Virus record (IMG/VR): IMGVR_UViG_3300017716_001697
Coordinates: 160,001-224,000 of that record
Direction: 5' to 3' (one strand)
Length of the DNA: 64,000 bases
Source: a virus
Lineage: Duplodnaviria; Caudoviricetes
Below are positions 5,292 to 61,011 of the stretch, piece by piece. Position numbers and translations under genes: made by a program. Below the pieces are notes generated by a model. It was not told the origin of the DNA. It ran no database searches and saw only the letters and a list, made by a program, of their open reading frames with translations. Every line of letters begins with the position of its first letter. Position 1 is the stretch's first letter.

Positions 5292-5342
5292 ATTCTTATT
5301 AGGTGTCTTGTTTTCCACATTAATATAAGCTATAGTCACTAA

Positions 5343-5783
5343 ATGACAAAATACGCAACAAACACTAAGGAACCATCGGAGATGTTTCTTAATTCTATAA
5401 CATCGGGCGGTGGCTCACATTACATGGTCTGCGGCAACTGTGGCCGGACACATTATTGCCCTGATTCGGTTGCTGTAGGAGACGACGGATCTGATACCGA
5501 TGAAGACGATGTATACAAAAATTATCTTCAAGAGGCCCTACTTGACCAAAAGAACGACCCCGACGGTGTAGTGATACATCACGGGGTTGATTTCGTTGCT
5601 ACAAAAGATCTCCGTGGCATAGCTTTTGTATTAGAGTGTCCGTGTAATGGGCTAACAAAATACGAAGAGTTTATTTGGGACAACAAGGATCCTATTCGTC
5701 GATATTTGAAGGCACGGATTGATCAGGAACATGCATGGGCATTAGAACAGTTAACATTAAACAAACTAGCAGGAATAAAATGA
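5343..5783 (+). CDS. Hypothetical protein with CxxC motif
   Basis: 146 aa; CGNCGRTHYC and ECPC motifs. Confidence 0.65.
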   Translation: MTKYATNTKEPSEMFLNSITSGGGSHYMVCGNCGRTHYCPDSVAVGDDGSDTDEDDVYKNYLQEALLDQKNDPDGVVIHHGVDFVATKDLRGIAFVLECPCNGLTKYEEFIWDNKDPIRRYLKARIDQEHAWALEQLTLNKLAGIK

Positions 5784-8753: not shown

Positions 8754-8912
8754 ATGAAACAACCAGATCCAAAATTACATCAACGAATTAGTTTCGTTAA
8801 GAGCGGTTTAAGAATTTTAGCAGGTGGCGCATTCATTATGAGCACACTGTGGTTAGGCGGAGTCTTAATCATTGTTGCTGAAATTTTAGGTATTGTAGAA
8901 GAATTAGTATAA
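8754..8912 (+). CDS. Small membrane protein (52 aa, below ORF-track cutoff)
   Basis: MKQPDPKLHQRISFVKSGLRILAGG...AEILGIVEELV; GGAG RBS; two hydrophobic segments. Confidence 0.65.
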   Translation: MKQPDPKLHQRISFVKSGLRILAGGAFIMSTLWLGGVLIIVAEILGIVEELV

Positions 8913-10428: not shown

Positions 10429-10673
10429 CACTAAGAACACTAAAGACATCATTCTGTAAAGAAACACAGGATTGGTCGGAGGCTTACCGCAATATGTGTG
10501 TTAGCGAAGTTATACCAGTGATGGATATAGAGGACAGGTTACGTGTTGTAGAAGAGCGACTACTTATAGTAAATCCACCGGCTGGCAAATTTACTATGTA
10601 TCCTGCATTAGCAGAAGCATATAAAGAGTACAAACTAATAGAAAAACTAACATTAGGAAATAATGAAACATAA
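10425..10673 (+). CDS. Hypothetical protein
   Basis: 82 aa, ATGA-coupled. Confidence 0.55.
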   Translation: MTLRTLKTSFCKETQDWSEAYRNMCVSEVIPVMDIEDRLRVVEERLLIVNPPAGKFTMYPALAEAYKEYKLIEKLTLGNNET

Positions 10674-11631
10674 TATTCTAATCACAGGTGGTAGTGGGTT
10701 CGTAGGATCACAGGTAGCATCGGCATTGACTGATGAAGGACACACAATTACCATTGTAGATCGTGTCGATAAGAAACCGGGTGTCCCCGGTAATATTATT
10801 GTACGTGATTATCAAGAATTCTTTGCGCATAACAGAATACAGTATGATACAGTCATTCATTTAGCAGCCGAGCACCTAGTAGAACAGAGTGTGTCTGAAC
10901 CTGCAAAATATTACGTAAATAACGTGGTAAAAATGAAGGAAATGCTTGATTCTATGGTAGCTACTGGCATCAAGAATATTATGTTCAGCTCTAGCGGTAA
11001 TGTGTATGGCCGCCAAGGTGCTGCAGGATTCCCACTAAAAGAAGACATGTATTACGATCCCGAAAATGCATATGCATCTACTAAAGTTGCAGGCGAAATG
11101 TTAATTAAAGACTATTCGCGTGCATATGGATTAAACTATGTAAACTTTAGATACTTCAATGCAGCAGGTGCAGATCCATTATGCAGGTTTGGATATACCC
11201 AGCGCCCTGCAACCCATGTTATTCCTATCTTGTGCAATAAGATAATGAATAAACAGCCATTTACAATCTTCGGTGACGATTATCACACATTCGATCATAC
11301 GTGTGTTCGTGATTACGTAAACGTCTTTGACTTAGCTCAAGCACATGTTCTTGCCATTGATTTTCTAAACCGTGGCGGCAAAAATGAAACATTTAATGTA
11401 GGAGCCGGCAGTGGCGGTGTAAGTGTAAAGCAATTGGTAGATTGTGCAGGATTTGTATTAGGTGTTACGCCTGTAGTAGAATATGCACCACGCCGCGCCG
11501 GCGATCCAGCGATACTAATAGCAGATATTTCAAAAGCAGAGAAATTGCTTGGATGGAAACCACGATACACAATTAGTGATTCTATTAGACATGCATGGGC
11601 CTGGGAACATAAATTTGGAGGCACACCGTGA
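10663..11631 (+). CDS. galE: NAD-dependent NDP-sugar epimerase (GalE-like)
   Basis: TGGSGFVG, HLAA, FSSS, YxxxK (YASTK), RYFNAAG, CVRDY, RRAGDP. Confidence 0.9.
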   Translation: MKHNILITGGSGFVGSQVASALTDEGHTITIVDRVDKKPGVPGNIIVRDYQEFFAHNRIQYDTVIHLAAEHLVEQSVSEPAKYYVNNVVKMKEMLDSMVATGIKNIMFSSSGNVYGRQGAAGFPLKEDMYYDPENAYASTKVAGEMLIKDYSRAYGLNYVNFRYFNAAGADPLCRFGYTQRPATHVIPILCNKIMNKQPFTIFGDDYHTFDHTCVRDYVNVFDLAQAHVLAIDFLNRGGKNETFNVGAGSGGVSVKQLVDCAGFVLGVTPVVEYAPRRAGDPAILIADISKAEKLLGWKPRYTISDSIRHAWAWEHKFGGTP

Positions 11632-33498: not shown

Positions 33499-33872
33499 AT
33501 GAGTTACAACTGTTTGGTAAGAAAGTGTTTGCTAGGATGAAAATGCGCCGCGGCAAAGAAAGTCTACGCACACGGCTTTGGTGGAGATTTATGCCCGGTA
33601 CCTACATACATATGAATTGGCCTACAGGCCCTGTAAATGTTAAAAATCCATGCGGAGAAATTTTCCTACACATGCCCGGTCCAGACTCAGCTGACCCAAA
33701 TGATCACTGGCGTGCATGGTTAGAACGAGAAGTAGGTAAACAGGGCATGGCGTGGGACTGGGAGGTTGGTTCAATAGGCGGGCCACAAACACATGGTCAG
33801 GATACCGTAGTGATTAAGTTTAGATTCGATAAAGGGAGTGTTGCAACAGCATTCAAACTAATATATGGATGA
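33495..33872 (+). CDS. FKLRW-family protein with N-terminal extension
   Basis: WLEREVGKQG...KGSVATAFKLIYG. Confidence 0.65.
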   Translation: MNELQLFGKKVFARMKMRRGKESLRTRLWWRFMPGTYIHMNWPTGPVNVKNPCGEIFLHMPGPDSADPNDHWRAWLEREVGKQGMAWDWEVGSIGGPQTHGQDTVVIKFRFDKGSVATAFKLIYG

Positions 33873-51744: not shown

Positions 51745-51820
51745 TCTGGCGTTAGTACAATGGATAGTACAGGGGATTTCTACTCCCTAGATAGGGGTTC
51801 GATTCCTCTACGCCGGACCA
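51745..51820 (+). tRNA. tRNA-Arg(UCU)
   Basis: 76 nt; acceptor TCTGGCG/CGCCGGA, anticodon arm GGGGA-TT-TCT-AC-TCCCT, GGTTCGATTCC, encoded CCA. Confidence 0.93.
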
Positions 51821-52566: not shown

Positions 52567-52746
52567 GATACGGTATGATTTGTCCGAAATGTGATACACT
52601 GATGGGTGCAATGGGGTATGGTGATGAACGGTGTCCTGCTTGTGGACACACATCATATTCTGAATCTGATGAAGAATTTAATCTTCGCATATACGGTACA
52701 ACATTCCGTGAAGGCGAAGATATTGACACTGAACAAAGAGAATAAT

Positions 52747-53940
52747 ATGGAAATCGAAAATGTAAAAATGTGGGTAGGTGATATGGAAGTAGAGCAAGCA
52801 GCTCTATCCCAAATCCTAAACATTTCCCAACTACCTATCCTTGCTGGACACATGGCTATCATGCCAGACGTACACATGGGTAAAGGTGCCACTGTGGGTT
52901 CTGTTATCCCTACACGTTCTGCAATTATTCCTGCGGCTGTGGGTGTGGATATCGGCTGTGGTATGATTGCAGCAATGACCAACCTTACTGCCGATGATCT
53001 TCCTGACTCATTGTTTTCGTTGCGTAATGCAATTGAAAAGGTAGTACCTGTAGGATTCAACGAACACGCAAAGGGCATCCCTTCTGTATCGGGACCTTAC
53101 GCAGATATCCTGCGCAAGAATTTGCACAAGACAATGGATCAATGGGATCACTTGGCAATGAAGCAGCACCTTGGTCGTGCTGACGAAAAGCGCATTGCTC
53201 GCCAAATCGGTACGCTAGGTGGTGGTAACCACTTTATCGAAATCTGTCTCGATACATCTAACCGTGTGTGGATTATGTTACACAGTGGTTCACGCGGTAT
53301 CGGCAATCAAATCGGCACTGTTGCAATCGAAATGGCTAAAGAACAGGCTGCTAAACGTGCATGGGGTCTCCCTGATGCTGATCTTGCATGGCTGGACGAA
53401 GGCACAACCGAATTCGATGCATACATTGAGGCAATGCATTGGGCACAGGACTATGCAAAATTCAACCGCGATACAATGCTGAATTTGGTTATTTCTGCAA
53501 TGAAGGTAAAGTTTCCTACAATGAAGATTGTTGGCGAAGTTGTAAACTGCCACCATAATTTTACAAGCGTGGAAGAGCACTTCAATGAAAAGATCTGGGT
53601 GACACGTAAGGGTGCAGTTTCTGCGCAGTATGGGCAAATGGGTATTATTCCCGGCTCAATGGGTGCAAAGTCATTCATTGTTCGCGGTAAAGGTAATCCT
53701 GATTCCTACTGCTCGTGTTCGCATGGTGCTGGTCGTAAGATGAGCCGCAACCAAGCTAAGAAGTTGTTCACATCACTTGATCTAGAACAACAAACAGCCG
53801 GTGTTGAGTGCCGTAAGGATGCAGACGTAGTTGATGAAATTCCGGGTGCATATAAGGATATTGATCAGGTAATGGCAGCGCAGGCTGATTTGGTTGATAT
53901 TGTACACACGTTGAAGCAAGTTCTTTGTATTAAGGGGTAA
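52747..53940 (+). CDS. rtcB: RtcB RNA 3'-phosphate/5'-OH ligase
   Basis: MPDVH, AVGVDIGCG, GTLGGGNHF, LHSGSRG, HHNF, PGSMG, SCSHGAGR, DEIPGAYK; likely start ATG 52747. Confidence 0.97.
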   Translation: MEIENVKMWVGDMEVEQAALSQILNISQLPILAGHMAIMPDVHMGKGATVGSVIPTRSAIIPAAVGVDIGCGMIAAMTNLTADDLPDSLFSLRNAIEKVVPVGFNEHAKGIPSVSGPYADILRKNLHKTMDQWDHLAMKQHLGRADEKRIARQIGTLGGGNHFIEICLDTSNRVWIMLHSGSRGIGNQIGTVAIEMAKEQAAKRAWGLPDADLAWLDEGTTEFDAYIEAMHWAQDYAKFNRDTMLNLVISAMKVKFPTMKIVGEVVNCHHNFTSVEEHFNEKIWVTRKGAVSAQYGQMGIIPGSMGAKSFIVRGKGNPDSYCSCSHGAGRKMSRNQAKKLFTSLDLEQQTAGVECRKDADVVDEIPGAYKDIDQVMAAQADLVDIVHTLKQVLCIKG

Positions 53941-53942
53941 TC

Positions 53943-54995
53943 ATGGGATCATGGAACGGAACATGTGCAGTATCTAACCTGCACGTACGAAGCGGGCAAG
54001 AGGTAGCAGTATTCATGCTGCTCGAAAACAAAAGATCAAAATCCTTCTGTTATGGTAATGCATTGTACGATGTATGCCCGTTACCATTCTATGGCAAGTA
54101 TAATGATTACGGTGCAGTAGAAGACTGCCAAGGCCCGGTGTTGCCCATTGTGGTTGACGAAATCAAGCGCCAGCTGTACGAATTTGGCCAAGGCCCGAAC
54201 AGTAGCCACGACATGGTAGTACGCAGGGCCGATTTTGACATTGATCTGTTATTTGAAGCCGACCACGAAGATCGTCTCGGTATTCAATATACACCCTTCT
54301 TCGACGAAGATGATTATGATCTTCGCGAATTGCGTAAAGACGGTGAAAAAGATCAACTTACACCAGATCAGCAATTCGAGCTTGACAGACTAGCCAACAA
54401 ACTCAAACAGGTAGATACATTTAGACGTGTTACACACGTAATTATTCATGGTGATATTTTCCGTGATATCATGAATAAATATTACATCGATGAATATGTT
54501 GGTGACAGCAAAGGTACAACAGGTTATGGAAATAACTATAACCGTGTATTCTTTAAGGATATTCTTGCATCTATTCCTGCATACATCGATGCCTGCAAGT
54601 CTGAAGCGGCAAGAATTAATGCTATGACTGACCCGCATGAACAATGGGCAGAACGAAACATTCCTAAGGATGAATGGAAGAATCCTAATCTTGCAGCAAG
54701 ATGGCTAAACAGCTTCAGTAATAGCAGCGAAGGATTCGGGCTTCTTCGTGTCGACGAATACATTCGCGAATATAAGAATGACGGCCGGTGGGACGAGCTG
54801 ACAGACTTTGTTACAGAAGCGTTAAAGGGTGCATGGGTAAATAGATATATGTCATCCATCCGTAAGCTGTGGTCGAAGCAGACAGGTGCCGGCTCTCAGA
54901 ATGATGAACATGATGGATACAATATCCTGATCCAATCAATGACAGACGTATTGGCGGCCGAGAAGAAGGCGTGGGATGACGAGAACGGGGAGTAG
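53943..54995 (+). CDS. Hypothetical protein
   Basis: 350 aa, directly coupled to rtcB. Confidence 0.75.
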   Translation: MGSWNGTCAVSNLHVRSGQEVAVFMLLENKRSKSFCYGNALYDVCPLPFYGKYNDYGAVEDCQGPVLPIVVDEIKRQLYEFGQGPNSSHDMVVRRADFDIDLLFEADHEDRLGIQYTPFFDEDDYDLRELRKDGEKDQLTPDQQFELDRLANKLKQVDTFRRVTHVIIHGDIFRDIMNKYYIDEYVGDSKGTTGYGNNYNRVFFKDILASIPAYIDACKSEAARINAMTDPHEQWAERNIPKDEWKNPNLAARWLNSFSNSSEGFGLLRVDEYIREYKNDGRWDELTDFVTEALKGAWVNRYMSSIRKLWSKQTGAGSQNDEHDGYNILIQSMTDVLAAEKKAWDDENGE

Positions 54996-55317: not shown

Positions 55318-55395
55318 GCGATGGTAGCTTAGATGGCCTAAAGCCCTCGACTCATAATCGAGATATCGTGGGTTCGACTCCCACCCGTCGCACCA
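55318..55395 (+). tRNA. tRNA with CAU anticodon (elongator Met or Ile2)
   Basis: Acceptor GCGATGG/CCGTCGC, CTCGA-CT-CAT-AA-TCGAG, GTGGG-TTCGACT-CCCAC, ACCA. Confidence 0.92.
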
Positions 55396-55759: not shown

Positions 55760-56272
55760 ATGAAGCACATACTATTACTACTGGCATTAATCCCTACCAC
55801 TGTAGAATTAGGTAAAGACATCATCTGCCGACGTGACCCACCTAAGATTGATGCTGCACAAGCAAAATGTTTGGCCACTACCATTTACGGCGAAGCTCGC
55901 GGGGAGAGCGAGAAGGGTCAGGTAGCAGTAGCATATACTGTCATGAATCGTGCTGTAAACCGCACATTATGCCAGGTTGCACTAGCACCTAAGCAGTACA
56001 GCATCTTTAACAATAACCCTGAATTACGAGCTGCGGCTACAAGCATGCATATCGAGCCAAAGCAGAAAAATGTCATCGATCAGAAAAGTTGGGATCGTGC
56101 TGTTAAGGTTGCTAACATGGTAATCCAACGTGCAGTCAAGGACCCAACTAACGGTGCAACACATTATCTTGCACCAATCGTAATGAAGGCTAAAAACTAT
56201 CGTTATCCGCGCTGGTCTAGGGAATACAAATTGGTCGCAGTGATTGACGGGCACAAATTCTTCAAAGCATAA
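55760..56272 (+). CDS. Cell wall hydrolase, SleB/Hydrolase_2 family
   Basis: CLATTIYGEARGES...VAVAYTVMNR, KQYS, DPTNGATHY, IDGHKFF; signal/TM N-terminus. Confidence 0.9.
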   Translation: MKHILLLLALIPTTVELGKDIICRRDPPKIDAAQAKCLATTIYGEARGESEKGQVAVAYTVMNRAVNRTLCQVALAPKQYSIFNNNPELRAAATSMHIEPKQKNVIDQKSWDRAVKVANMVIQRAVKDPTNGATHYLAPIVMKAKNYRYPRWSREYKLVAVIDGHKFFKA

Positions 56273-56273
56273 C

Positions 56274-56546
56274 ATGGCTATTAAACCAACTGACTATGTT
56301 GTCAACGTGAGTAAACTGCCAAATATACCTATGGATATGTGGCCCGCGTTCTGGATGAATTTCCAGAGACATATTGAGAAGAATATAAACTGGTCTGTCC
56401 GATATAACGGCGATCGTGTCGGGGACGAAATTAACAAATATCTTAGAAATATCGACGCCGAAATGAAACATAATAAGAAGAATGAAATCATTGTGAAATT
56501 TAAATCCGAAGCTGATTTCTTAATCTTCAAAATGAGATGGCTATGA
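56274..56546 (+). CDS. FKLRW-family small protein
   Basis: FWMNF...VKFKSEADFLIFKMRWL. Confidence 0.78.
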   Translation: MAIKPTDYVVNVSKLPNIPMDMWPAFWMNFQRHIEKNINWSVRYNGDRVGDEINKYLRNIDAEMKHNKKNEIIVKFKSEADFLIFKMRWL

Positions 56547-56794
56547 GTGGATATAGGGTTAACTTCGAAACACTCGAGCCCGATTTACCTACCTATCCTA
56601 CATGTTGGATTAATTTCTGCGACAAAGTACGAGAAGATGATGATTTTGTATCTAGGAGCGGCGGAATGCATTGCGCACTTACTGAGCGTCTCAAATCAAT
56701 TGGTATCAAACGCATAAAAGACCCCGCGCAGTGGGTTATACTTGAGTTCGAATCAGAGGCAGATTTTCTTGTCTTTAAACTAAGGTGGGGTTGA
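56537..56794 (+). CDS. FKLRW-family small protein
   Basis: CWINF...LEFESEADFLVFKLRWG. Confidence 0.78.
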   Translation: MAMSGYRVNFETLEPDLPTYPTCWINFCDKVREDDDFVSRSGGMHCALTERLKSIGIKRIKDPAQWVILEFESEADFLVFKLRWG

Positions 56795-56795
56795 T

Positions 56796-57080
56796 ATGTA
56801 TCGCGTAAACATACAGGAGGTATCCGAAATTGTTGATCACGGTGATGCGTATATTCCTCCGCAGTGGTGGATTAATTTTGAAAAATATGCGAATACGCTT
56901 GTTGACTGGACCGAAGCATGGCGTCGCGATCCTCATGCATTTAATGAATGCTCGCCAGGATTTTATGCAATGAAGGGGTTACTTAGGGGATTAGGTGCAG
57001 ACATTATCGCAGATGGCAGCTATACTCTCTTGTTCGCAGATGAGGCTGACTTCTTGGTATTTAAACTAAAGTGGGGCTAA
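56796..57080 (+). CDS. FKLRW-family small protein
   Basis: WWINF...LLFADEADFLVFKLKWG. Confidence 0.78.
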   Translation: MYRVNIQEVSEIVDHGDAYIPPQWWINFEKYANTLVDWTEAWRRDPHAFNECSPGFYAMKGLLRGLGADIIADGSYTLLFADEADFLVFKLKWG

Positions 57081-57092
57081 TTCATAAACCTG

Positions 57093-57120
57093 TTGACATT
57101 ACTGTGTAAGACTGTATAAT
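57093..57120 (+). promoter_or_regulatory. sigma70-type promoter
   Basis: TTGACA-N16-TATAAT. Confidence 0.75.
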
Positions 57121-57176
57121 TAACTTCTTAGCAAGTAAAAACGTTTAATTTTATTAACACACATAGGAATTAACAA

Positions 57177-57506
57177 ATGACACAACTGAACGCAAAATCC
57201 AATCCTATCGAGTACATGCATTTCCGACCGATCTTCCGTGATGTGTCCGGTGGCGCAACTGTTGCCATCATGCCACGTGCAAGTTTGGGCACTGCATTGA
57301 TCTCTGTTGCTCGCTGCGGCCCAATGGACAACTTCAACAAGAAGATTGGCCGCGATGTTGCTACTGGTCGTCTGAGTGCATACCTGGCAGGTCGCCAATC
57401 TGTTGCAGGCCACGTGCGCGAAATTGCTGTGCCAGACATGCTCAAACTCAAAGAGACTGTTGCGATGGCCCTTGAAAACGAAATGGCTGACAACGATCTG
57501 GCGTAA
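57177..57506 (+). CDS. Hypothetical protein
   Basis: 109 aa; ARC...DNFNKKIGR; AGGA RBS. Confidence 0.7.
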   Translation: MTQLNAKSNPIEYMHFRPIFRDVSGGATVAIMPRASLGTALISVARCGPMDNFNKKIGRDVATGRLSAYLAGRQSVAGHVREIAVPDMLKLKETVAMALENEMADNDLA

Positions 57507-57663
57507 GGCAGTTGACATTGTACGCAAAATAGCGTACAATTAATAGGCAGTGTGAGTGCAGACCCAGAGGGGGCGGTGTTTAATTACATCGCCCTTTCTT
57601 TTTGGCTCTGTTTTAAGTTAAAAATTGCGTATACCAGATAAATAAGTGTAGGAGACTACACTT

Positions 57664-58290
57664 ATGATATGCGAATACGGATGTAATGGGGAGGCCAATC
57701 ATCAATTACTAAACGGTAAATGGTGTTGCAGTAAACGGCCCGCTGGTTGCAAGGTGCTAAAGGCAGTTAACTCGGCAGGTCTGAAGAAAGCGCATAGTGA
57801 GGGTAGGGGCGGATATATTTACAAAGATCTATCTGACGAAACCAAAGCCCGAATGAATTGGGCTAAGGGTAAGACTATTACACCCGATAGCGAAATATTT
57901 ACAGAAAATAGCACATACTCTAACGAGATGGTTAAACATAGAATTGTTAAAGGTGATCTATTAGAATACAAATGCTCTAATCCGAAATGTGGAATAACCG
58001 AATGGTGCGACGAATCTATTGTGTTAGATTTGGATCATATAAATGGTAACAACACAGATAACAGATTATCTAATTTACGATACTTATGCCCAAATTGCCA
58101 TTCTCAGACAGACACATACAAGGGCAGAAATAAGAATACAGGTAAGTTGAAAGTAACCGACACTGAATTGTTGGCAGCATATAAGGAATGCAATAATATT
58201 AGGCAAGCATTAATCAGCGTAGGAATTGCTGCAAAGGGTGGCAATTATGAAAGATTAAAAAAATTAATTAGCAAAACGCTTGCCCTATAG
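57664..58290 (+). CDS. Free-standing HNH endonuclease (homing-type)
   Basis: YKCSNPKC, LDLDHINGNNTDNRLSNLRYLCPNCHS; GATAAATA at 57637 and AGGAG RBS. Confidence 0.9.
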   Translation: MICEYGCNGEANHQLLNGKWCCSKRPAGCKVLKAVNSAGLKKAHSEGRGGYIYKDLSDETKARMNWAKGKTITPDSEIFTENSTYSNEMVKHRIVKGDLLEYKCSNPKCGITEWCDESIVLDLDHINGNNTDNRLSNLRYLCPNCHSQTDTYKGRNKNTGKLKVTDTELLAAYKECNNIRQALISVGIAAKGGNYERLKKLISKTLAL

Positions 58291-58308
58291 CTAAATATGT
58301 TGTATAAT
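58280..58308 (+). promoter_or_regulatory. Promoter for tRNA/ncRNA cluster
   Basis: TTGCCC-N17-TATAAT, with a CTAAATA late-like motif in the spacer. Confidence 0.6.
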
Positions 58309-58358
58309 TAATGCATAGCAGCTGATTACAGTAGCTTGTAGAGATCATTAATAAATTA

Positions 58359-58648
58359 GCGGGTATGGAGAAATTGGTAAACTCACCAGACTTAGAGAAA
58401 TAAAATTTGAGTGCCCGGTCGGAAACGATCGGAGTAGAACCTGTCAAATTCGGCGAACACTTTAACATGTCAACGCCGAGCGAAGCCCGAAAGGGAACGT
58501 GTAGAGACTTGACGGCAGGTACCTAACGCAGAAATGCTACGGTAAAGACAAAGTCCAGACTATCAAACCGAGAGGGTAGCGAAAGCTATAGTAGTAAGAA
58601 AATCTGGCGCCGCAAGGCTTGACGGTTCAAGTCCGTCTACCCGCACCA
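58359..58648 (+). tRNA. tRNA-Leu(UAA), intron-split (exons 58359-58393 and 58599-58648)
   Basis: Acceptor GCGGGTA/TACCCGC; joined exons give CCAGA-CT-TAA-AA-TCTGG; long variable arm; GACGG-TTCAAGT-CCGTC; ACCA. Confidence 0.93.
58394..58598 (+). mobile_element. Group I intron (IC3-like), 205 nt, no ORF
   Basis: P1 ACUU|AGA:UUUGAGU with U-G at splice site; P2 GAAA hairpin; P3 ACCUGUC/GGCAGGU; P4 UUCGGCG/CGCCGAG; P7 G-A-GACUU/AAGUC-C; P8; P9; terminal G. Confidence 0.93.
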
Positions 58649-58743
58649 TATTAGGATACATTGTGCAGACGCGGTAGCTAGCCCAAAAGGGACTTTACTA
58701 GCGACAATGGTGAATGCAGGTACAACAGTGTATCCCAATATGG
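58646..58743 (+). ncRNA. Helix-closed RNA module H1
   Basis: CCATATTAGGATACATTGT / ACAGTGTATCCCAATATGG (18/19 paired). Confidence 0.6.
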
Positions 58744-58744
58744 T

Positions 58745-58927
58745 GCCATATTAAAACGCATAAATGCATTAGTTGCATTGGTAATCTGAATGACGTGGAT
58801 AGCTGCATCTTACCCACTGTCAAACAGAGGACATTGCAGGTGATAGCAAATGTAATGGTTTACAGCTAGGCGATTAGAGTCTGGTAGGTGGGTTCAACTC
58901 CTGCTAATGCGGTTTAACATGGCACCA
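58745..58927 (+). ncRNA. Helix-closed RNA module H2 with T-arm and ACCA end
   Basis: GCCATATTAAAACGCAT / ATGCGGTTTAACATGGC then ACCA; GTGGG-TTCAACT-CCTGC at 58888-58904. Confidence 0.6.
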
Positions 58928-59017
58928 TATCGAAGTACATTAACTGAGTACAAGGCTCAGCGTGCGAATTTTAGTAACTAAGCCTCAAGAGGAAGCTATA
59001 GTGTACTTCGATATGGT
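58924..59017 (+). ncRNA. Helix-closed RNA module H3
   Basis: ACCATATCGAAGTACATTA / TAGTGTACTTCGATATGGT; internal hairpins CTGAG/CTCAG, TTAG/CTAA, CCTC/GAGG. Confidence 0.65.
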
Positions 59018-59031
59018 ATAATGTAGACGTA

Positions 59032-59132
59032 TATTGTAACATACACGGAAGGTAATTGGTCCGTGAAACTCGACTGTGGTGTAATGGTAGCACTCAAAAG
59101 TTCCTGGTTCGAATCCAGGCCCGCAATAACCA
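59032..59132 (+). ncRNA. Anticodon-less tRNA-like element
   Basis: D-arm GTGT-AATGGTA-GCAC, T-arm CCTGG-TTCGAAT-CCAGG only 9 nt later, TATTGT/GCAATA helix then ACCA. Confidence 0.45.
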
Positions 59133-59138
59133 AAGGGG

Positions 59139-59182
59139 GTTCGGCACAACGAGTAGGAGAGATGGTTCGATTCCGTCCGAAT
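59139..59182 (+). pseudogene. tRNA remnant (T-arm plus short helix)
   Basis: GATGG-TTCGATT-CCGTC with GTTCG/CGAAT flanks; no D or anticodon arm. Confidence 0.35.
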
Positions 59183-59190
59183 AGAGTTTG

Positions 59191-59269
59191 CATATTAGAG
59201 GGCATTATGCTTCTATTTAAAAAGGGAGCCTGTGCTGGCACATTGGCACATCTAATGTCCTCTAATATG
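59191..59269 (+). ncRNA. Helix-closed RNA module H4
   Basis: CATATTAGAGGGCATTA / TAATGTCCTCTAATATG (17 bp incl. 1 G-U). Confidence 0.6.
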
Positions 59270-59423
59270 ATGCAGGTAGGCAAATGTGGTAAAGCCGCCG
59301 GTTCGGTCCGGTGAGAGATATGTTGAAGTCTTACATGATGACGGGTAGCTGGGTCGACACAGTCCGTACAGTGGCAGGAGCGATATATTTCGTTTATGGG
59401 TTCGATTCCCATCTTGTATCCCA
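59269..59423 (+). ncRNA. tRNA-like RNA with 83-nt variable-arm insertion
   Basis: Acceptor (G)ATGCAGG/CTTGTAT(C)+CCA, D-arm GGC/GCC, GCCGG-TTCGGT-CCGGT arm, T-arm ATGGG-TTCGATT-CCCAT. Confidence 0.7.
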
Positions 59424-59428
59424 GAATA

Positions 59429-59628
59429 GCCAGGGTAGCTCAGTCAGGCACGAAACTTAAAGGGAAGATGTTGCAACATTCAACGGAGAGAAGTAATGAC
59501 TTAGGAAGGTTAAGTAGTAAGCATCTTATGATACGCGGTGTAAGGTGTGTAGGTGATAGCCAACTATTAAGTAGAGCAACCAGTATCTAACTGGAAGGTC
59601 GTTGGTTCAATTCCATCCGCTGGCACCA
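59429..59628 (+). ncRNA. tRNA-like RNA with ~123-nt D-loop insertion
   Basis: GCCAGGG/CGCTGGC+ACCA, D-stem GCTC/GAGC 132 nt apart, CCAG-TATCTAA-CTGG, GTTGG-TTCAATT-CCATC. Confidence 0.72.
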
Positions 59629-59634
59629 AATTAT

Positions 59635-59749
59635 GCGATGATAGCTTCAGGTTGGTAGAGCGCGTCATTGAATGCCCTATTTATTCTACGTTATGGTATA
59701 TAGGCGAGTGGTCAGGACGAGGTCGCAGGTTCAACGCCTGCTCATTGTA
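59635..59749 (+). ncRNA. tRNA-like RNA with ~40-nt anticodon-loop insertion
   Basis: GCGATGA/TCATTGT, D-arm GCTT/GAGC, CGTC/GACG enclosing 49 nt, AGGTC, GCAGG-TTCAACG-CCTGC; no adjacent CCA. Confidence 0.68.
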
Positions 59750-59753
59750 TAAG

Positions 59754-59861
59754 CCATATGAGAATACACTGTGGAGAGCACTGCGTATGACTGGGAAGGT
59801 TTGAACCCGACTCACATCGTCACTCGGTATCCTGCGGCCGCAACAGTGTATTCCCATATGG
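59754..59861 (+). ncRNA. Helix-closed RNA module H5
   Basis: CCATATGAGAATACACTGT / ACAGTGTATTCCCATATGG (18/19). Confidence 0.65.
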
Positions 59862-59863
59862 TA

Positions 59864-60180
59864 CGAAGGGTAGAAGATGATATCAAAGGCTATTTCCTTT
59901 TTTGATAGACGAAACGCTGTGGCCACGGTGTTAGACTACTTATTGGTTAACCATTGTACCGCCAGATTCCGAAGCCTGTAATCAGGCCTGCCAAACAGTA
60001 AATTGGAGTGTGGGAGGACGCACTTAAAACCATCTCCCGCAGGGTCACCATGTGTTATGAGCGGTGATAGTTTAGCGAACCGGAGTCCTAAAAACCGGAA
60101 GGGTAAAGCAAACTTACCTACAAGTAGCGAAAGGTCTGCTATAGCAGTCAAGCCATCCTAGTCTGGAAAACTAGGGTGCA
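59864..60180 (+). ncRNA. Candidate ~320-nt multi-hairpin RNA
   Basis: No + strand ORF; hairpins TATCAA/TTGATA, GCCTG/CAGGC, TGTGGGAG/CTCCCGCA, TCACC/GGTGA, CCGG/CCGG, GGTAA/TTACC, CCTAGT/ACTAGG. Confidence 0.45.
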
Positions 60181-60348
60181 TTTATTTTAGAAAGATATCC
60201 ATATGTACACTTATGCATGGACCATATTTGGTTATTACGGTGGACCTACTATGACAACAAATTATCAACAACACTGTTCGTGGTACACTGTTGACGATTT
60301 TGGTGATCTCGTACCTGCCACATACAAAATGGATTATTTGGAGACAAC

Positions 60349-60558
60349 ATGACACAGAAAATTTACGGATTAATTGCTGACGGCGGTGACGGAAGTTCTA
60401 GCATGCGTTGGTTTCGATCTTTTGATAAGGTTAACGAATTGCTCGACGAAGAGAATGGGCACGAGGAATATTGGGCGAACGAAGGCGGACCTGCCGAAAG
60501 ACTTACCTTCCCCGATGATCTTAATCTTGAGGAGTGCGGATTCTACTTTAGTGACTGA
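60349..60558 (+). CDS. Hypothetical protein
   Basis: 69 aa, GGAG RBS. Confidence 0.65.
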   Translation: MTQKIYGLIADGGDGSSSMRWFRSFDKVNELLDEENGHEEYWANEGGPAERLTFPDDLNLEECGFYFSD

Positions 60559-60563
60559 AACGT

Positions 60564-60797
60564 ATGACGTACAAATACGTGATTACTGTAGACTATCCTG
60601 AGCGAAGGCATATCTGGGATTGGTGTGTAGAACACATAGGTAAGTCAGCGCATGATACATTTTACTATGATCCGGGACAAGGGCAGTGGCCCAATATTCC
60701 GAAATTCATAATTTATAATCCAGAACATGCTACATTGTTTAAATTAGTATGGGGTGAATATATAAAGGGCAACGTGAAGGCCCCGTGCAGTATATAG
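60564..60797 (+). CDS. FKLRW-family small protein
   Basis: WCVEHIG...IYNPEHATLFKLVWG. Confidence 0.7.
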   Translation: MTYKYVITVDYPERRHIWDWCVEHIGKSAHDTFYYDPGQGQWPNIPKFIIYNPEHATLFKLVWGEYIKGNVKAPCSI

Positions 60798-60874
60798 CGG
60801 CATACCCGTATCTACTGCATAAAGGTATAGACTAGTAATACCACGGCTCTTGGTTGTTATCGGACTAAACAACC

Positions 60875-61011
60875 ACCATATCAAATCATATTGCCCTACC
60901 CATTGGGTAGCAGACAGTGGTTGGAAGGATCTGCTCGTTACTCGCCGCGTTGGATGCACTCGGGTTGCACCGATGCCAACAGACAGTGATTGCAGTATGA
61001 TTTGATATGGT
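60875..61011 (+). ncRNA. Helix-closed RNA module H6
   Basis: ACCATATCAAATCATATTG / CAGTATGATTTGATATGGT (19 bp, 1 G-U); internal CTACCC/GGGTAG, GCAGA/TCTGC, GTTGG/CCAAC. Confidence 0.65.

What the first reader, a model, noticed from the sequence alone, without database searches (positions are those of the whole stretch)
58359..58648. Self-splicing group I intron in a phage tRNA-Leu(UAA)
Seen: removing 58394-58598 restores a perfect tRNA-Leu(UAA), and all core helices P1-P9, the U-G splice-site wobble, the G-binding site and the terminal G are present. The insertion is after U34, the site of the cyanobacterial/plastid tRNA-Leu(UAA) intron (established). The core (UGUCAAAUUCGGCGAA, CAACGCCGAGC, GUGUAGAGACU-GACGGCA, AGUCCAG) closely resembles the minimal 205-nt Azoarcus tRNA-Ile IC3 ribozyme as I recall it. 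Phage group I introns are mostly known in protein genes, so a phage tRNA intron points to phages as vectors of bacterial tRNA introns. It is also a very compact new ribozyme.
Basis: partly seen in the sequence, partly recalled or inferred. Interest (0 to 1): 0.85.

Follow-up and report, generated by a model that had tools for sequence, protein, structure and literature searches.

The report
Group I intron splitting phage tRNA-Leu
A leucine-tRNA gene of a complete 365-kb freshwater jumbo phage is interrupted in its anticodon by a well-formed 205-base group I intron of the classic bacterial tRNA-Leu type, with a related DNA-cutting "homing" enzyme gene right beside it; this phage-borne arrangement is common in public data but I found no paper describing it.

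Summary
Window 58359-58648 (+) is tRNA-Leu(UAA) split between U34 and A35 by a 205-nt intron (58394-58598). ARAGORN in intron mode and Rfam RF00028 (53 bits, cut-off 50) both call it. All 59 pairs of a hand-derived P1-P9 fold are canonical. Across 53 diverse relatives 95% of pair cells hold, against 31-44% in slid controls, with 490 compensatory cells against 135 in shuffles.

The host genome is a complete phage: 364,576 bp, terminal repeats, terminase, PolB, 45 tRNAs.

The intron is not unique. At least 73 viral contigs, two published huge phages and cultured Agrobacterium phage Atu_ph07 (unannotated) carry the same split tRNA-Leu. The window's intron falls in an all-viral clade distinct from the bacterial copies.

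Such neighbours occur in 21 of 67 viral loci and 0 of 74 bacterial loci, which suggests collaborative homing.

Splicing itself is inferred; public RNA runs gave no exon-exon joint. A 2014 review says phage introns lie only in protein genes, and I found no later report. This scan has already met the same phenomenon on other genomes.

The parts
57664..58290 (+). Free-standing HNH homing-type endonuclease gene (208 aa), ending 68 nt upstream of the split tRNA
   Evidence: PHROG 10822/14736 'HNH endonuclease', E 7e-33 and 2e-30. Pfam HNH_3 gives only 19.6 bits, below its cut-off of 24.8. The C-x4-C ... DH-INGN ... N ... CPNCH motif is intact in the alignment. It is homologous to HNH ORFs encoded inside tRNA-Leu(UAA) introns: L205 38% over 198 aa at 126 bits, plus L003, L209 and L243.
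58280..58308 (+). Sigma-70-like promoter candidate (TTGCCC, 17 nt, TATAAT) overlapping the HNH 3' end, 51 nt before the tRNA
   Evidence: Consensus scan, 10 of 12 matches. This is a pattern match only, not evidence of function.
58359..58393 (+). 5' exon of tRNA-Leu(UAA): acceptor arm, D arm and 5' anticodon stem, ending C32 U33 U34
   Evidence: ARAGORN on the spliced and unspliced sequence.
58394..58598 (+). 205-nt group I (IC3-type) intron without an ORF
   Evidence: RF00028 at 53 bits; full fold; covariation.
58391..58411 (+). P1 hairpin: exon C-U-U plus intron A-G-A (58391-58396) pairs with the internal guide UUUGAG (58406-58411). U58393.G58409 is the splice-site wobble. UUU of the guide can pair with the first three A of the 3' exon (P10).
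   Evidence: The U.G wobble is present in 53 of 53 sequences, and the extension pairs covary (helix 1).
58412..58436 (+). P2 (10 bp, one bulged A) closed by a GAAA tetraloop (58422-58425)
   Evidence: 9 of 10 pairs show changes on both sides. The loop's first G and last A are invariant and the two middle A are at least 90% conserved.
58440..58500 (+). P3 5' strand (58440-58445), J3/4 AAA (58446-58448), P4 (58450-58455 with 58474-58479), P5 (58459-58460 with 58469-58470), P6 (58480-58482 with 58498-58500), P6a (58486-58488 with 58493-58495)
   Evidence: Helices 3-7 are 96-100% paired with compensatory changes. J3/4 is invariant.
58504..58556 (+). P7 (58504-58510 with 58551-58556, a pseudoknot with P3) including the candidate guanosine-binding pair G58506-C58555 beside bulged A58505; P3 3' strand (58514-58519); P8 (58521-58529 with 58536-58543) with a receptor-like CCUAA...UACGG internal loop
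   Evidence: P7 was held invariant by the search motif, so covariation leaves it largely untested (1 of 6 pairs varies).
58559..58598 (+). P9 (58559-58563 with 58591-58595), P9a mini-hairpin (58568-58575), P9b with a GAAA loop (58576-58589), then UAAG ending in omega-G at 58598
   Evidence: All five P9b pairs covary, P9 has 2 covarying pairs, and omega-G is invariant in 53 sequences. P9a is poorly aligned and not supported.
58599..58648 (+). 3' exon of tRNA-Leu(UAA): A35 A36, 3' anticodon stem, long variable arm, T arm, acceptor, A73 and encoded CCA
   Evidence: ARAGORN.

Best explanation
The element is a genuine group I intron of the bacterial tRNA (IC3) type, sitting between U34 and A35 of a phage-encoded tRNA-Leu(UAA). 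The proposed mechanism has five steps. (1) The gene is transcribed, possibly from the promoter-like site at 58280-58308. (2) The intron folds into the P1-P9 architecture, stabilised by the L2 and L9b GAAA tetraloops. (3) A free guanosine bound at the P7 G-C pair attacks after U58393, which is held in the U.G wobble of P1. (4) Omega-G (58598) replaces it, and the freed 5' exon attacks the 3' splice site, aligned by P10 and by pairing of the two anticodon-stem halves. (5) The result is an 85-nt tRNA that reads UUA, the phage's commonest leucine codon.

Step 2 is supported by covariation among homologues. Steps 1 and 3-5 are inferred from established group I chemistry.

A second, less certain part (about 50%) concerns mobility. 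The intact HNH gene directly upstream would be the intron's partner: it would cut intron-less tRNA-Leu(UAA) genes at or near the insertion site, while the intron disrupts that site in its own genome. Gene conversion would then spread HNH and intron together ('collaborative homing'). The confidence figure given here refers to the first part.
For: Identity: ARAGORN finds the split tRNA and the spliced tRNA, and RF00028 scores 53 bits against a cut-off of 50.

Structure: all 59 pairs are canonical. On 53 sequences 95.0% of cells pair, against 31-44% for slid partners. There are 490 double-sided changes against 135 +/- 9 in shuffles, reached by 0 of 500 shuffles. Compensatory changes occur in P1, P2, P3, P4, P5, P6, P6a, P8, P9 and P9b. 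U-1, its G partner, the J3/4 AAA and omega-G are invariant. The first G and last A of the L2 GAAA loop are invariant and its two middle A are at least 90% conserved. In the L9b GAAA loop the last A is invariant.

Phage context: the genome is an IMG/VR record of 364,576 bp with terminal repeats and 100% completeness. It has Terminase_6N at 66 bits, PolB and endolysin PHROGs, and 45 tRNAs plus a tmRNA. TTA is the top Leu codon at 24.7 per 1000.

Family: the same split gene occurs in huge phages LR756501 and LR756511, in 73 viral contigs and in Atu_ph07. The window lies in a clade of 28 viral rows plus itself, SH-aLRT 93.

HNH: it is intact with catalytic motifs and homologous to intron-encoded HNHs at the same site. 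A homologue lies within 600 nt in 21 of 67 viral ORF-less loci and 0 of 74 bacterial ones (Fisher p 2e-8). The upstream, same-strand layout is confined to a 19-tip all-viral intron clade that includes the window. In six relatives the ORF overlaps the tRNA 5' end by 18-21 nt. Intron-less phage tRNA-Leu(UAA) genes with the identical 21-nt anticodon stem-loop exist.
Against: There is no direct evidence of splicing. No contig in eight public runs joins 58393 to 58599, although those runs are stored as contigs and mature tRNAs are poorly captured.

The RF00028 score is only 3 bits above the cut-off. P7 and part of J8/7 could not be tested by covariation because my search motif fixed them. P9a is not supported.

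The phage has a second UAA-anticodon tRNA (genome 15366-15442), so the split gene may be dispensable.

For the homing part, cleavage specificity is unknown. The loci in the Fisher test are related, not independent. The closest RtcB-anchored relatives lack the whole cassette, so no clean pair of intron-plus and intron-minus genomes was found. 34 viral loci with full flanks have no HNH nearby.
Confidence: 0.85

Rival explanations
1. The HNH gene is an independent selfish free-standing endonuclease that merely tends to land beside tRNA genes. It plays no part in moving the intron or being protected by it, and the intron is now immobile and inherited vertically.
For: 34 of 55 viral ORF-less loci with complete flanks have no HNH within 600 nt. 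HNH genes are very common in phage genomes generally (one search reports hundreds in Jug phages). No cleavage data exist.
Against: The HNH is homologous to endonucleases encoded inside this very intron at the same site. Each HNH arrangement tracks a particular intron subclade. In six loci the ORF physically overlaps the tRNA 5' end. There are no such neighbours in 74 bacterial loci.
Confidence: 0.3
2. The intron needs a protein to be removed. It might fold and splice only with a phage or host cofactor, or the exons might be joined by the nearby RtcB ligase after endonucleolytic cuts, rather than by true self-splicing.
For: An RtcB RNA ligase gene lies 4.4 kb upstream (427 bits). Many group I introns need chaperones in vivo (review). 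The intron is small, with few peripheral stabilising elements.
Against: The complete catalytic core, U.G wobble, omega-G and both GAAA tetraloops are conserved. I saw no bulge-helix-bulge motif at the junctions when reading them, though this was not formally searched. From my own knowledge, equally small IC3 tRNA introns (Azoarcus, Anabaena) self-splice in vitro. The closest RtcB homologues in related phages have no tRNA intron nearby.
Confidence: 0.08
3. The intron is a decayed relic that no longer splices, so this tRNA-Leu gene is a pseudogene made redundant by the phage's other UAA-anticodon tRNA.
For: A second UAA tRNA exists at genome 15366-15442. RNA-library contigs cover unspliced sequence only.
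Against: All 59 pairs and all invariant core positions are intact in the window. The spliced tRNA is flawless. The other UAA tRNA is an atypical 77-nt molecule without the long variable arm typical of tRNA-Leu. The clade shows compensatory rather than random change.
Confidence: 0.05
4. The DNA is bacterial (a chromosome fragment or a recently captured host tRNA gene), so the intron is just the ordinary bacterial tRNA-Leu intron.
For: The same intron type is widespread in bacteria. IMG/VR can contain misclassified contigs.
Against: The record is a complete 364.6-kb genome with terminal repeats, a large terminase, phage PolB and an endolysin-like gene, and a 45-tRNA complement. The 22 best intron matches are all viral. 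The intron sits in an all-viral clade.
Confidence: 0.02

Closest known systems
[quoted passage not shown]
   Same: The insertion point is identical (CUU / intron ...G / AAAA). It has the same core strings and the same P1-P9 layout with no large peripheral domains. 84 bacterial examples sampled here share the exact core motif.
   Different: It resides in a phage genome. It belongs to an all-viral clade separate from most bacterial copies. Viral copies are shorter, with a median of 202 nt against 234 nt. It is accompanied by a free-standing HNH gene, which was never seen beside the bacterial ORF-less copies sampled.
Azoarcus tRNA-Ile and Agrobacterium tRNA-Arg(CCU) IC3 introns
   Same: They are small (about 200 nt) tRNA anticodon-loop introns. 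tRNA-Arg(CCU) introns in my bacterial sample carry the same core motif (for example L135, L200, L217). L2 and L9 GAAA tetraloops are recalled for Azoarcus, from my own knowledge.
   Different: They have a different tRNA and a different position in the loop. The Azoarcus sequence itself was not available to compare, so that likeness rests on recall only.
Collaborative homing: cyanophage S-PM2 psbA intron plus free-standing F-CphI (Zeng, Bonocora & Shub 2009, as described in PMC6083498); T4 mobE / I-TevIII trans-homing (PMC2790892)
   Same: An ORF-less group I intron in a phage gene sits immediately beside a free-standing homing endonuclease gene. The published logic is that the intron blocks self-cleavage and the nuclease gives the intron mobility.
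   Different: The target here would be a tRNA gene, not a protein gene. The nuclease is an HNH, not an Endo VII-type enzyme, and it has intron-encoded homologues at the same site. Nothing has been tested biochemically.
'Enigmatic' tRNA introns of Lak megaphages (Devoto et al. 2019, PMC6784885)
   Same: They are phage-encoded tRNA genes interrupted in the anticodon loop, in very large phage genomes.
   Different: The Lak inserts were not classified as group I and some may themselves encode tRNAs. The element here is an unambiguous group I intron.

Membership tests
Group I intron (Rfam RF00028) | Scores at or above the curated gathering threshold of the covariance model | tested here: met
   53.0 bits against 50, E 1.2e-10. 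This is only just above threshold. Relatives L002 and L003 and Atu_ph07 (48.9 bits) fall below it.
Group I intron (Rfam RF00028) | P1 helix in which the last exon nucleotide is U in a U.G wobble with the internal guide sequence | tested here: met
   U58393.G58409. The U.G pair is present in 53 of 53 aligned homologues.
Group I intron (Rfam RF00028) | Terminal guanosine (omega-G) at the 3' end of the intron | tested here: met
   G58598, invariant in alignment A1.
Group I intron (Rfam RF00028) | Conserved core: P3-P8 and P4-P6 domains with a P3/P7 pseudoknot, supported by covariation | tested here: met
   P3, P4, P5, P6, P6a and P8 are 96-100% paired with compensatory changes. P7 is 100% paired, but the search motif made it invariant, so covariation for P7 is uninformative.
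Group I intron (Rfam RF00028) | Guanosine-binding site: a G-C pair in P7 next to a bulged nucleotide | tested here: met
   G58506-C58555 lies beside bulged A58505 in the fold. This rests on sequence only; binding was not tested.
Group I intron (Rfam RF00028) | Guanosine-dependent self-splicing | not testable with these tools
   Needs an in vitro transcript with GTP and Mg2+. Public RNA runs gave no exon-exon joint.
IC3-type bacterial tRNA introns, tRNA-Leu(UAA) class | Insertion between U34 and A35 of tRNA-Leu(UAA) (CUU/...g/AAAA) | tested here: met
IC3-type bacterial tRNA introns, tRNA-Leu(UAA) class | Shares the core sequence with established bacterial tRNA-Leu(UAA) and tRNA-Arg(CCU) introns | tested here: met
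   The same 17 + 9 nt core motif occurs in at least 120 bacterial contigs, 84 of them confirmed as Leu(UAA) after re-derivation of junctions.
IC3-type bacterial tRNA introns, tRNA-Leu(UAA) class | Compact architecture: P2 present; no P2.1, P5abc or P7.1/7.2 extensions; GAAA loops on P2 and P9 | tested here: met
   Fold. The GAAA loops are invariant or at least 90% conserved, position by position. Tetraloop-receptor docking was not tested.
   No Azoarcus sequence could be obtained from the tools or from PMC13168695. The likeness is recalled only.
Collaborative-homing cassette (free-standing homing endonuclease plus ORF-less intron) | An intact homing-type endonuclease gene directly adjacent to the intron-containing gene | tested here: met
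   HNH at 57664-58290, 68 nt from the tRNA, with motifs intact.
Collaborative-homing cassette (free-standing homing endonuclease plus ORF-less intron) | The endonuclease recognises the intron insertion site of intron-less alleles, and the intron protects its own genome | not testable with these tools
   Support is indirect only. Homologues are encoded inside the same intron at the same site, and intron-less phage alleles with an identical anticodon stem-loop exist.
Collaborative-homing cassette (free-standing homing endonuclease plus ORF-less intron) | Presence/absence polymorphism of the cassette among otherwise closely related genomes | tested here: inconclusive
   RtcB-anchored relatives (80-92% identity) lack tRNA, HNH and intron within 9 kb, but synteny is not otherwise established. 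One wastewater relative keeps the cassette at about 96% identity and diverges right after the tRNA.
HNH endonuclease superfamily | Profile match and the His-Asn-His / zinc-cysteine motif | tested here: met
   PHROG 10822, E 7e-33, and the motif in the alignment. The Pfam HNH_3 match is below its curated cut-off (19.6 against 24.8 bits).

The most novel reading that the evidence does not exclude
Phages maintain their own lineages of compact tRNA-Leu(UAA) group I introns. These move as two-gene cassettes together with a free-standing HNH endonuclease that cuts intron-less tRNA-Leu(UAA) genes. The targets would be competing phages and possibly the host chromosome, so the cassette would act both as a selfish element and as a weapon in co-infection. 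On this reading phages are the reservoir and vehicle behind the long-debated patchy distribution of this intron across bacteria.
Probability: 0.3. Interest if true: 0.75.

Novelty: new variant of a known kind. Interest (0 to 1): 0.55.

Why it matters
The tRNA-Leu(UAA) intron is a long-studied group I intron, and whether it spread vertically or horizontally has been debated for decades. A 2014 review states that phage group I introns occur only in protein genes (PMC3984707). This window, together with at least 73 other sampled viral contigs, two published huge phages and a cultured Agrobacterium phage, shows that statement no longer holds.

It also shows that phages hold distinct lineages of this intron. 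A third of the sampled viral copies have a neighbouring HNH endonuclease related to the intron-encoded ones. That makes two questions directly testable: whether phages ferry tRNA introns between bacteria, and whether a nuclease and an intron cooperate on a tRNA gene.

There is a practical point as well. The family scores at or just below the Rfam cut-off, and bacterial-mode tRNA finders skip split genes. As a result these tRNAs go unannotated, and phage tRNA inventories are undercounted.

Tried and rejected
1. Megablast of 56000-61000 against GenBank phages found no match.
2. RNA evidence: two run searches and two read layings found no 58393-to-58599 joint. All runs are stored as contigs, so this is uninformative. 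Contigs of cDNA libraries cover unspliced sequence only. Apparent junction-like loose ends belong to other organisms' tRNA-Leu(UAA) and tRNA-Leu(UAG) genes.
3. I looked for intron-minus sister genomes through the neighbouring RtcB gene. Close RtcB homologues have no tRNA, HNH or intron nearby, so no clean presence/absence pair emerged.
4. I scanned for the spliced junction in viral contigs. It found four intron-less phage tRNA-Leu(UAA) genes with the same 21-nt anticodon stem-loop, but they are otherwise unrelated to this phage.
5. Azoarcus comparison: no sequence was found in PMC13168695, so the claim is left untested.
6. Literature: six searches found no report of a group I intron in a phage tRNA gene. 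The nearest are the unclassified Lak phage tRNA introns. A 2026 jumbo-phage survey repeats that observation. The Jug phage paper reports thousands of introns in protein genes but never mentions tRNA.
7. I considered that this phage might be an intron-rich Jug-type phage and rejected the idea, because the genome has only one RF00028 match.
8. I considered RtcB-mediated protein splicing and judged it unlikely (see rival explanations).

Counts are therefore lower bounds, and cyanobacterial copies that differ in the motif are absent from the tree.

Full report
OBSERVATION

Window 58359-58648 (+) reads as a tRNA gene in two pieces. The 5' piece (58359-58393, 35 nt) ends C32-U33-U34. The 3' piece (58599-58648, 50 nt) begins A35-A36 and ends with A73 and an encoded CCA. 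Joining them gives an 85-nt tRNA-Leu(UAA) with a normal cloverleaf and a long variable arm. Default ARAGORN misses it. Rfam RF00028 (group I intron) matches 58339-58574 at 53.0 bits, just above its gathering score of 50.

STRUCTURE

From the sequence I derived a complete group I fold.
- P1 pairs exon C-U-U and the first three intron bases with the guide UUUGAG, with U58393.G58409 as the splice-site wobble. The UUU of the guide can also pair with the first three A of the 3' exon (P10).
- P2 is 10 bp and is closed by GAAA.
- P3, the J3/4 AAA, P4, P5 and P6/P6a follow.
- P7 forms the usual pseudoknot and contains a G-C pair (58506-58555) next to a bulged A, the arrangement of the guanosine-binding site.
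- P8 has a receptor-like CCUAA...UACGG internal loop.
- A three-way P9/P9a/P9b junction has P9b closed by GAAA, and the intron ends in G58598.

All 59 pairs are canonical.

I aligned the window with 52 diverse homologues, 16 viral and 36 bacterial, chosen below about 86% similarity by a sequence-matching ratio, and counted pairs.
- 95.0% of pair cells are standard pairs, against 31-44% when partners are slid by 1-3 columns.
- There are 490 cells with changes on both sides, against 135 +/- 9 in shuffles.
- No shuffle out of 500 reached any observed measure.
- Compensatory changes occur in P1, P2 (9 of 10 pairs), P3 (4 of 6), P4, P5, P6, P6a, P8, P9 and P9b (5 of 5).

Two limits apply. P7 was held invariant by the motif used to collect sequences, so it is not tested by covariation. 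The small P9a hairpin is poorly aligned and not supported. The MFE fold of the window alone is also more stable than shuffles (z = -3.6).

IS IT A PHAGE?

The window is bases 160001-224000 of an IMG/VR virus record of 364,576 bp, classed as having direct terminal repeats and 100% complete. The genome encodes:
- a large terminase (Terminase_6N, 66 bits);
- a family-B DNA polymerase and an endolysin-like protein (PHROGs);
- RtcB;
- 45 tRNAs and a tmRNA.

The source is a freshwater metagenome. The refutation 'bacterial chromosome' fails.

HOW COMMON IS IT?

The pre-tRNA matches two published huge-phage assemblies. LR756501 (735 kb) has tRNA-Leu(UAA) with a 205-nt intron at the same site. LR756511 (595 kb) has a 700-nt version containing an HNH ORF.

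An exact-motif scan of IMG/VR returned at least 119 stretches. Of the 122 motif occurrences (these plus copies in phage records fetched earlier), 99 lie inside intron-split tRNA genes. After re-deriving junctions, 73 are tRNA-Leu(UAA) split at the same point. Others are in tRNA-Arg(UCU), Lys, Pro, Ser, Thr, Ala, Asn and Met.

The same motif occurs in at least 120 bacterial contigs (Alpha- and Gammaproteobacteria, Acidobacteriota, Bacteroidota and others), 84 of them tRNA-Leu(UAA). This is in line with the thousands of bacterial cases mapped by Williams.

Cultured Agrobacterium phage Atu_ph07 carries an unannotated tRNA-Leu(UAA) with a 278-nt intron at MF403008.1 complement(112890..113251). It scores 48.9 bits on RF00028, just below the cut-off, and its genome paper does not mention introns. 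L002 and L003 also fall below the Rfam cut-off. This helps explain why the family has escaped annotation.

RELATIONSHIP OF PHAGE AND BACTERIAL COPIES

The 22 best BLAST matches to the window's intron are all viral; the best is 81% over 198 nt, and the first bacterial hit ranks 23rd. Viral introns are shorter, with a median of 202 nt against 234 nt.

In a maximum-likelihood tree of 129 non-identical ORF-less introns:
- the window lies in a clade of 28 viral rows plus itself (SH-aLRT 93);
- a second clade of 17 rows is purely viral;
- 60 of 61 rows of the main bacterial clade are bacterial;
- the viral/bacterial label needs 7-8 changes, against about 42 for shuffled labels.

A few strongly supported mixed clades exist, for example two viral rows with a Bacillota row at support 100, and three viral rows with two Acidobacteriota rows at 99. 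So transfer between phages and bacteria has happened, or some MAG contigs are really phage. The direction is unknown.

THE NEIGHBOURING ENDONUCLEASE

ORF 57664-58290 (208 aa) ends 68 nt before the tRNA and is an HNH endonuclease (PHROG E 7e-33). Its Pfam HNH_3 match is below cut-off. It is full-length relative to its homologues and keeps the zinc-cysteine and DH...N...CPNCH motifs.

It is homologous to endonucleases encoded inside tRNA-Leu(UAA) introns:
- 38% over 198 aa (126 bits) to the ORF in an 847-nt bacterial intron (L205);
- 36% over 139 aa to the LR756511 intron ORF;
- 45% over 84 aa to L209.

A homologue lies within 600 nt of the ORF-less split tRNA-Leu in 21 of 67 viral loci. Of these, 8 are upstream on the same strand as in the window, 8 are downstream on the same strand and 5 are downstream on the opposite strand. 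The count in bacterial loci is 0 of 74; there the HNH occurs only inside long introns. Fisher p is 2e-8, but the loci are related and not independent.

The upstream layout is confined to a 19-tip all-viral intron clade that includes the window. In six of those loci the ORF overlaps the tRNA 5' end by 18-21 nt. L008 has a 67%-identical HNH in the same position. A wastewater DNA contig carries HNH plus split tRNA at about 96% identity and diverges right after the tRNA 3' end.

This matches the published 'collaborative homing' arrangement. In cyanophage S-PM2 a free-standing nuclease next to the intron-containing psbA cuts intron-less alleles while the intron protects its own genome. Intron-less phage tRNA-Leu(UAA) genes with the identical 21-nt anticodon stem-loop exist and would be candidate targets. 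Cleavage specificity is untested, so I rate this part at about 50%.

FUNCTION OF THE tRNA

TTA is the phage's most used leucine codon (24.7 per 1000 in long ORFs). The only other UAA-anticodon tRNA in the genome is an atypical 77-nt molecule without a long variable arm. The split gene is therefore probably the phage's canonical tRNA-Leu(UAA), which argues that splicing must work.

EXPRESSION

A promoter-like TTGCCC-17-TATAAT lies at 58280-58308. This is a pattern match only. No public run shows the exon-exon joint. One cDNA-library contig covers the whole unspliced gene with 4 differences. A freshwater metatranscriptome contig, 95% identical, spans the 3' splice site. Both are compatible with precursor RNA or with DNA carry-over. 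Splicing remains inferred.

LITERATURE

Hausner, Hafez & Edgell (2014) write that all phage group I introns observed to date are in protein-coding genes despite many phage tRNA genes. Devoto et al. (2019) reported 'enigmatic' unclassified introns in Lak phage tRNAs as the first phage tRNA introns. Williams (2020) mapped group I introns in bacterial tRNAs only. Six full-text searches found no report of a group I intron in a phage tRNA gene. Subscription-only papers are not covered. Earlier follow-ups in this scan reached similar conclusions on other genomes. I treat those as leads, not as evidence.

VERDICT

This is a real group I intron of the classic tRNA-Leu(UAA) kind, almost certainly functional, in a bona fide jumbo phage. 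The ribozyme itself is ordinary. What is new relative to the accessible literature has three parts: its residence in phage tRNA genes, the existence of phage-specific lineages, and the recurrent pairing with a free-standing HNH homologous to the intron-encoded ones. I class it as a new variant of a known kind, of moderate interest.

Noticed in passing
window 52606-53940 (+), with 53943-54995 (+): An RtcB RNA ligase gene (Pfam 427 bits) lies between tRNA-Arg(UCU) (51746-51820) and tRNA-Met (55318-55395). It is followed by a 350-aa ORF of unknown function (phrog_5960). This is probably a tRNA-repair module rather than part of intron removal.
   Followed up: partly
genome G000:C1:15366-15442 (outside the window); also 8754-8830 and 10631-10707: Three 77-nt tRNAs have leucine anticodons (UAA, UAG, CAA) but no long variable arm, so they are class-I-shaped 'Leu' tRNAs. 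Their amino-acid identity is unclear. The UAA one duplicates the anticodon of the split gene.
   Followed up: partly
window 58765-58912 and 59270-59423 (+): Just downstream of tRNA-Leu, ARAGORN in intron mode calls two tRNA-like genes with short anticodon-loop inserts: 'Ile(aat)' with 52 nt and 'Pyl(cta)', an amber-suppressor-like anticodon, with 62 nt. They lie inside an ORF-poor stretch (about 58.65-61.5 kb) that other first-stage notes describe as an array of RNA modules. They are not group I introns.
   Followed up: no
L330 (Agrobacterium phage Atu_ph07, MF403008.1 complement 112890..113251): This is an unannotated tRNA-Leu(UAA) split by a 278-nt group I intron in a cultured jumbo phage. 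A small 'hypothetical protein' CDS is annotated across the intron's 3' end, the 3' exon and the sequence downstream. The published count of 33 tRNAs therefore misses at least one.
   Followed up: partly
L265:4787-5065 and 5332-5502; many loci: Related introns of about 200 nt split other phage tRNA genes: Thr(UGU) with an HNH just downstream, and also Arg(UCU), Lys(UUU), Pro(UGG), Ser(UGA), Ala(UGC), Asn(GUU) and Met(CAU). ARAGORN's 'Tyr(ata)', 'Phe' and 'Ser(aga)' calls are boundary miscalls of Leu(UAA).
   Followed up: partly
window 57664-58290 compared with L003, L033, L063, L014 and L209 ORFs: The HNH relatives come in two domain orders. A 'GGNY' helix module is C-terminal in the upstream free-standing type (and in intron-encoded L205), but N-terminal in the downstream and most intron-encoded types. 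In several bacterial and viral introns the HNH ORF is antisense to the intron.
   Followed up: partly
window 58648-58924: Related contigs from a wastewater DNA run (X2) and a same-habitat run labelled cDNA but probably DNA (X3) match up to the tRNA 3' end. They then replace the next 275 nt by 104 unrelated letters before matching again. This marks a recombination boundary exactly at the tRNA end.
   Followed up: no
genome G000:C1:30533-30892 and 33705-33780: The phage encodes a tmRNA (tag ANADTFALVA) and a CUA-anticodon (amber-reading) tRNA.
   Followed up: no
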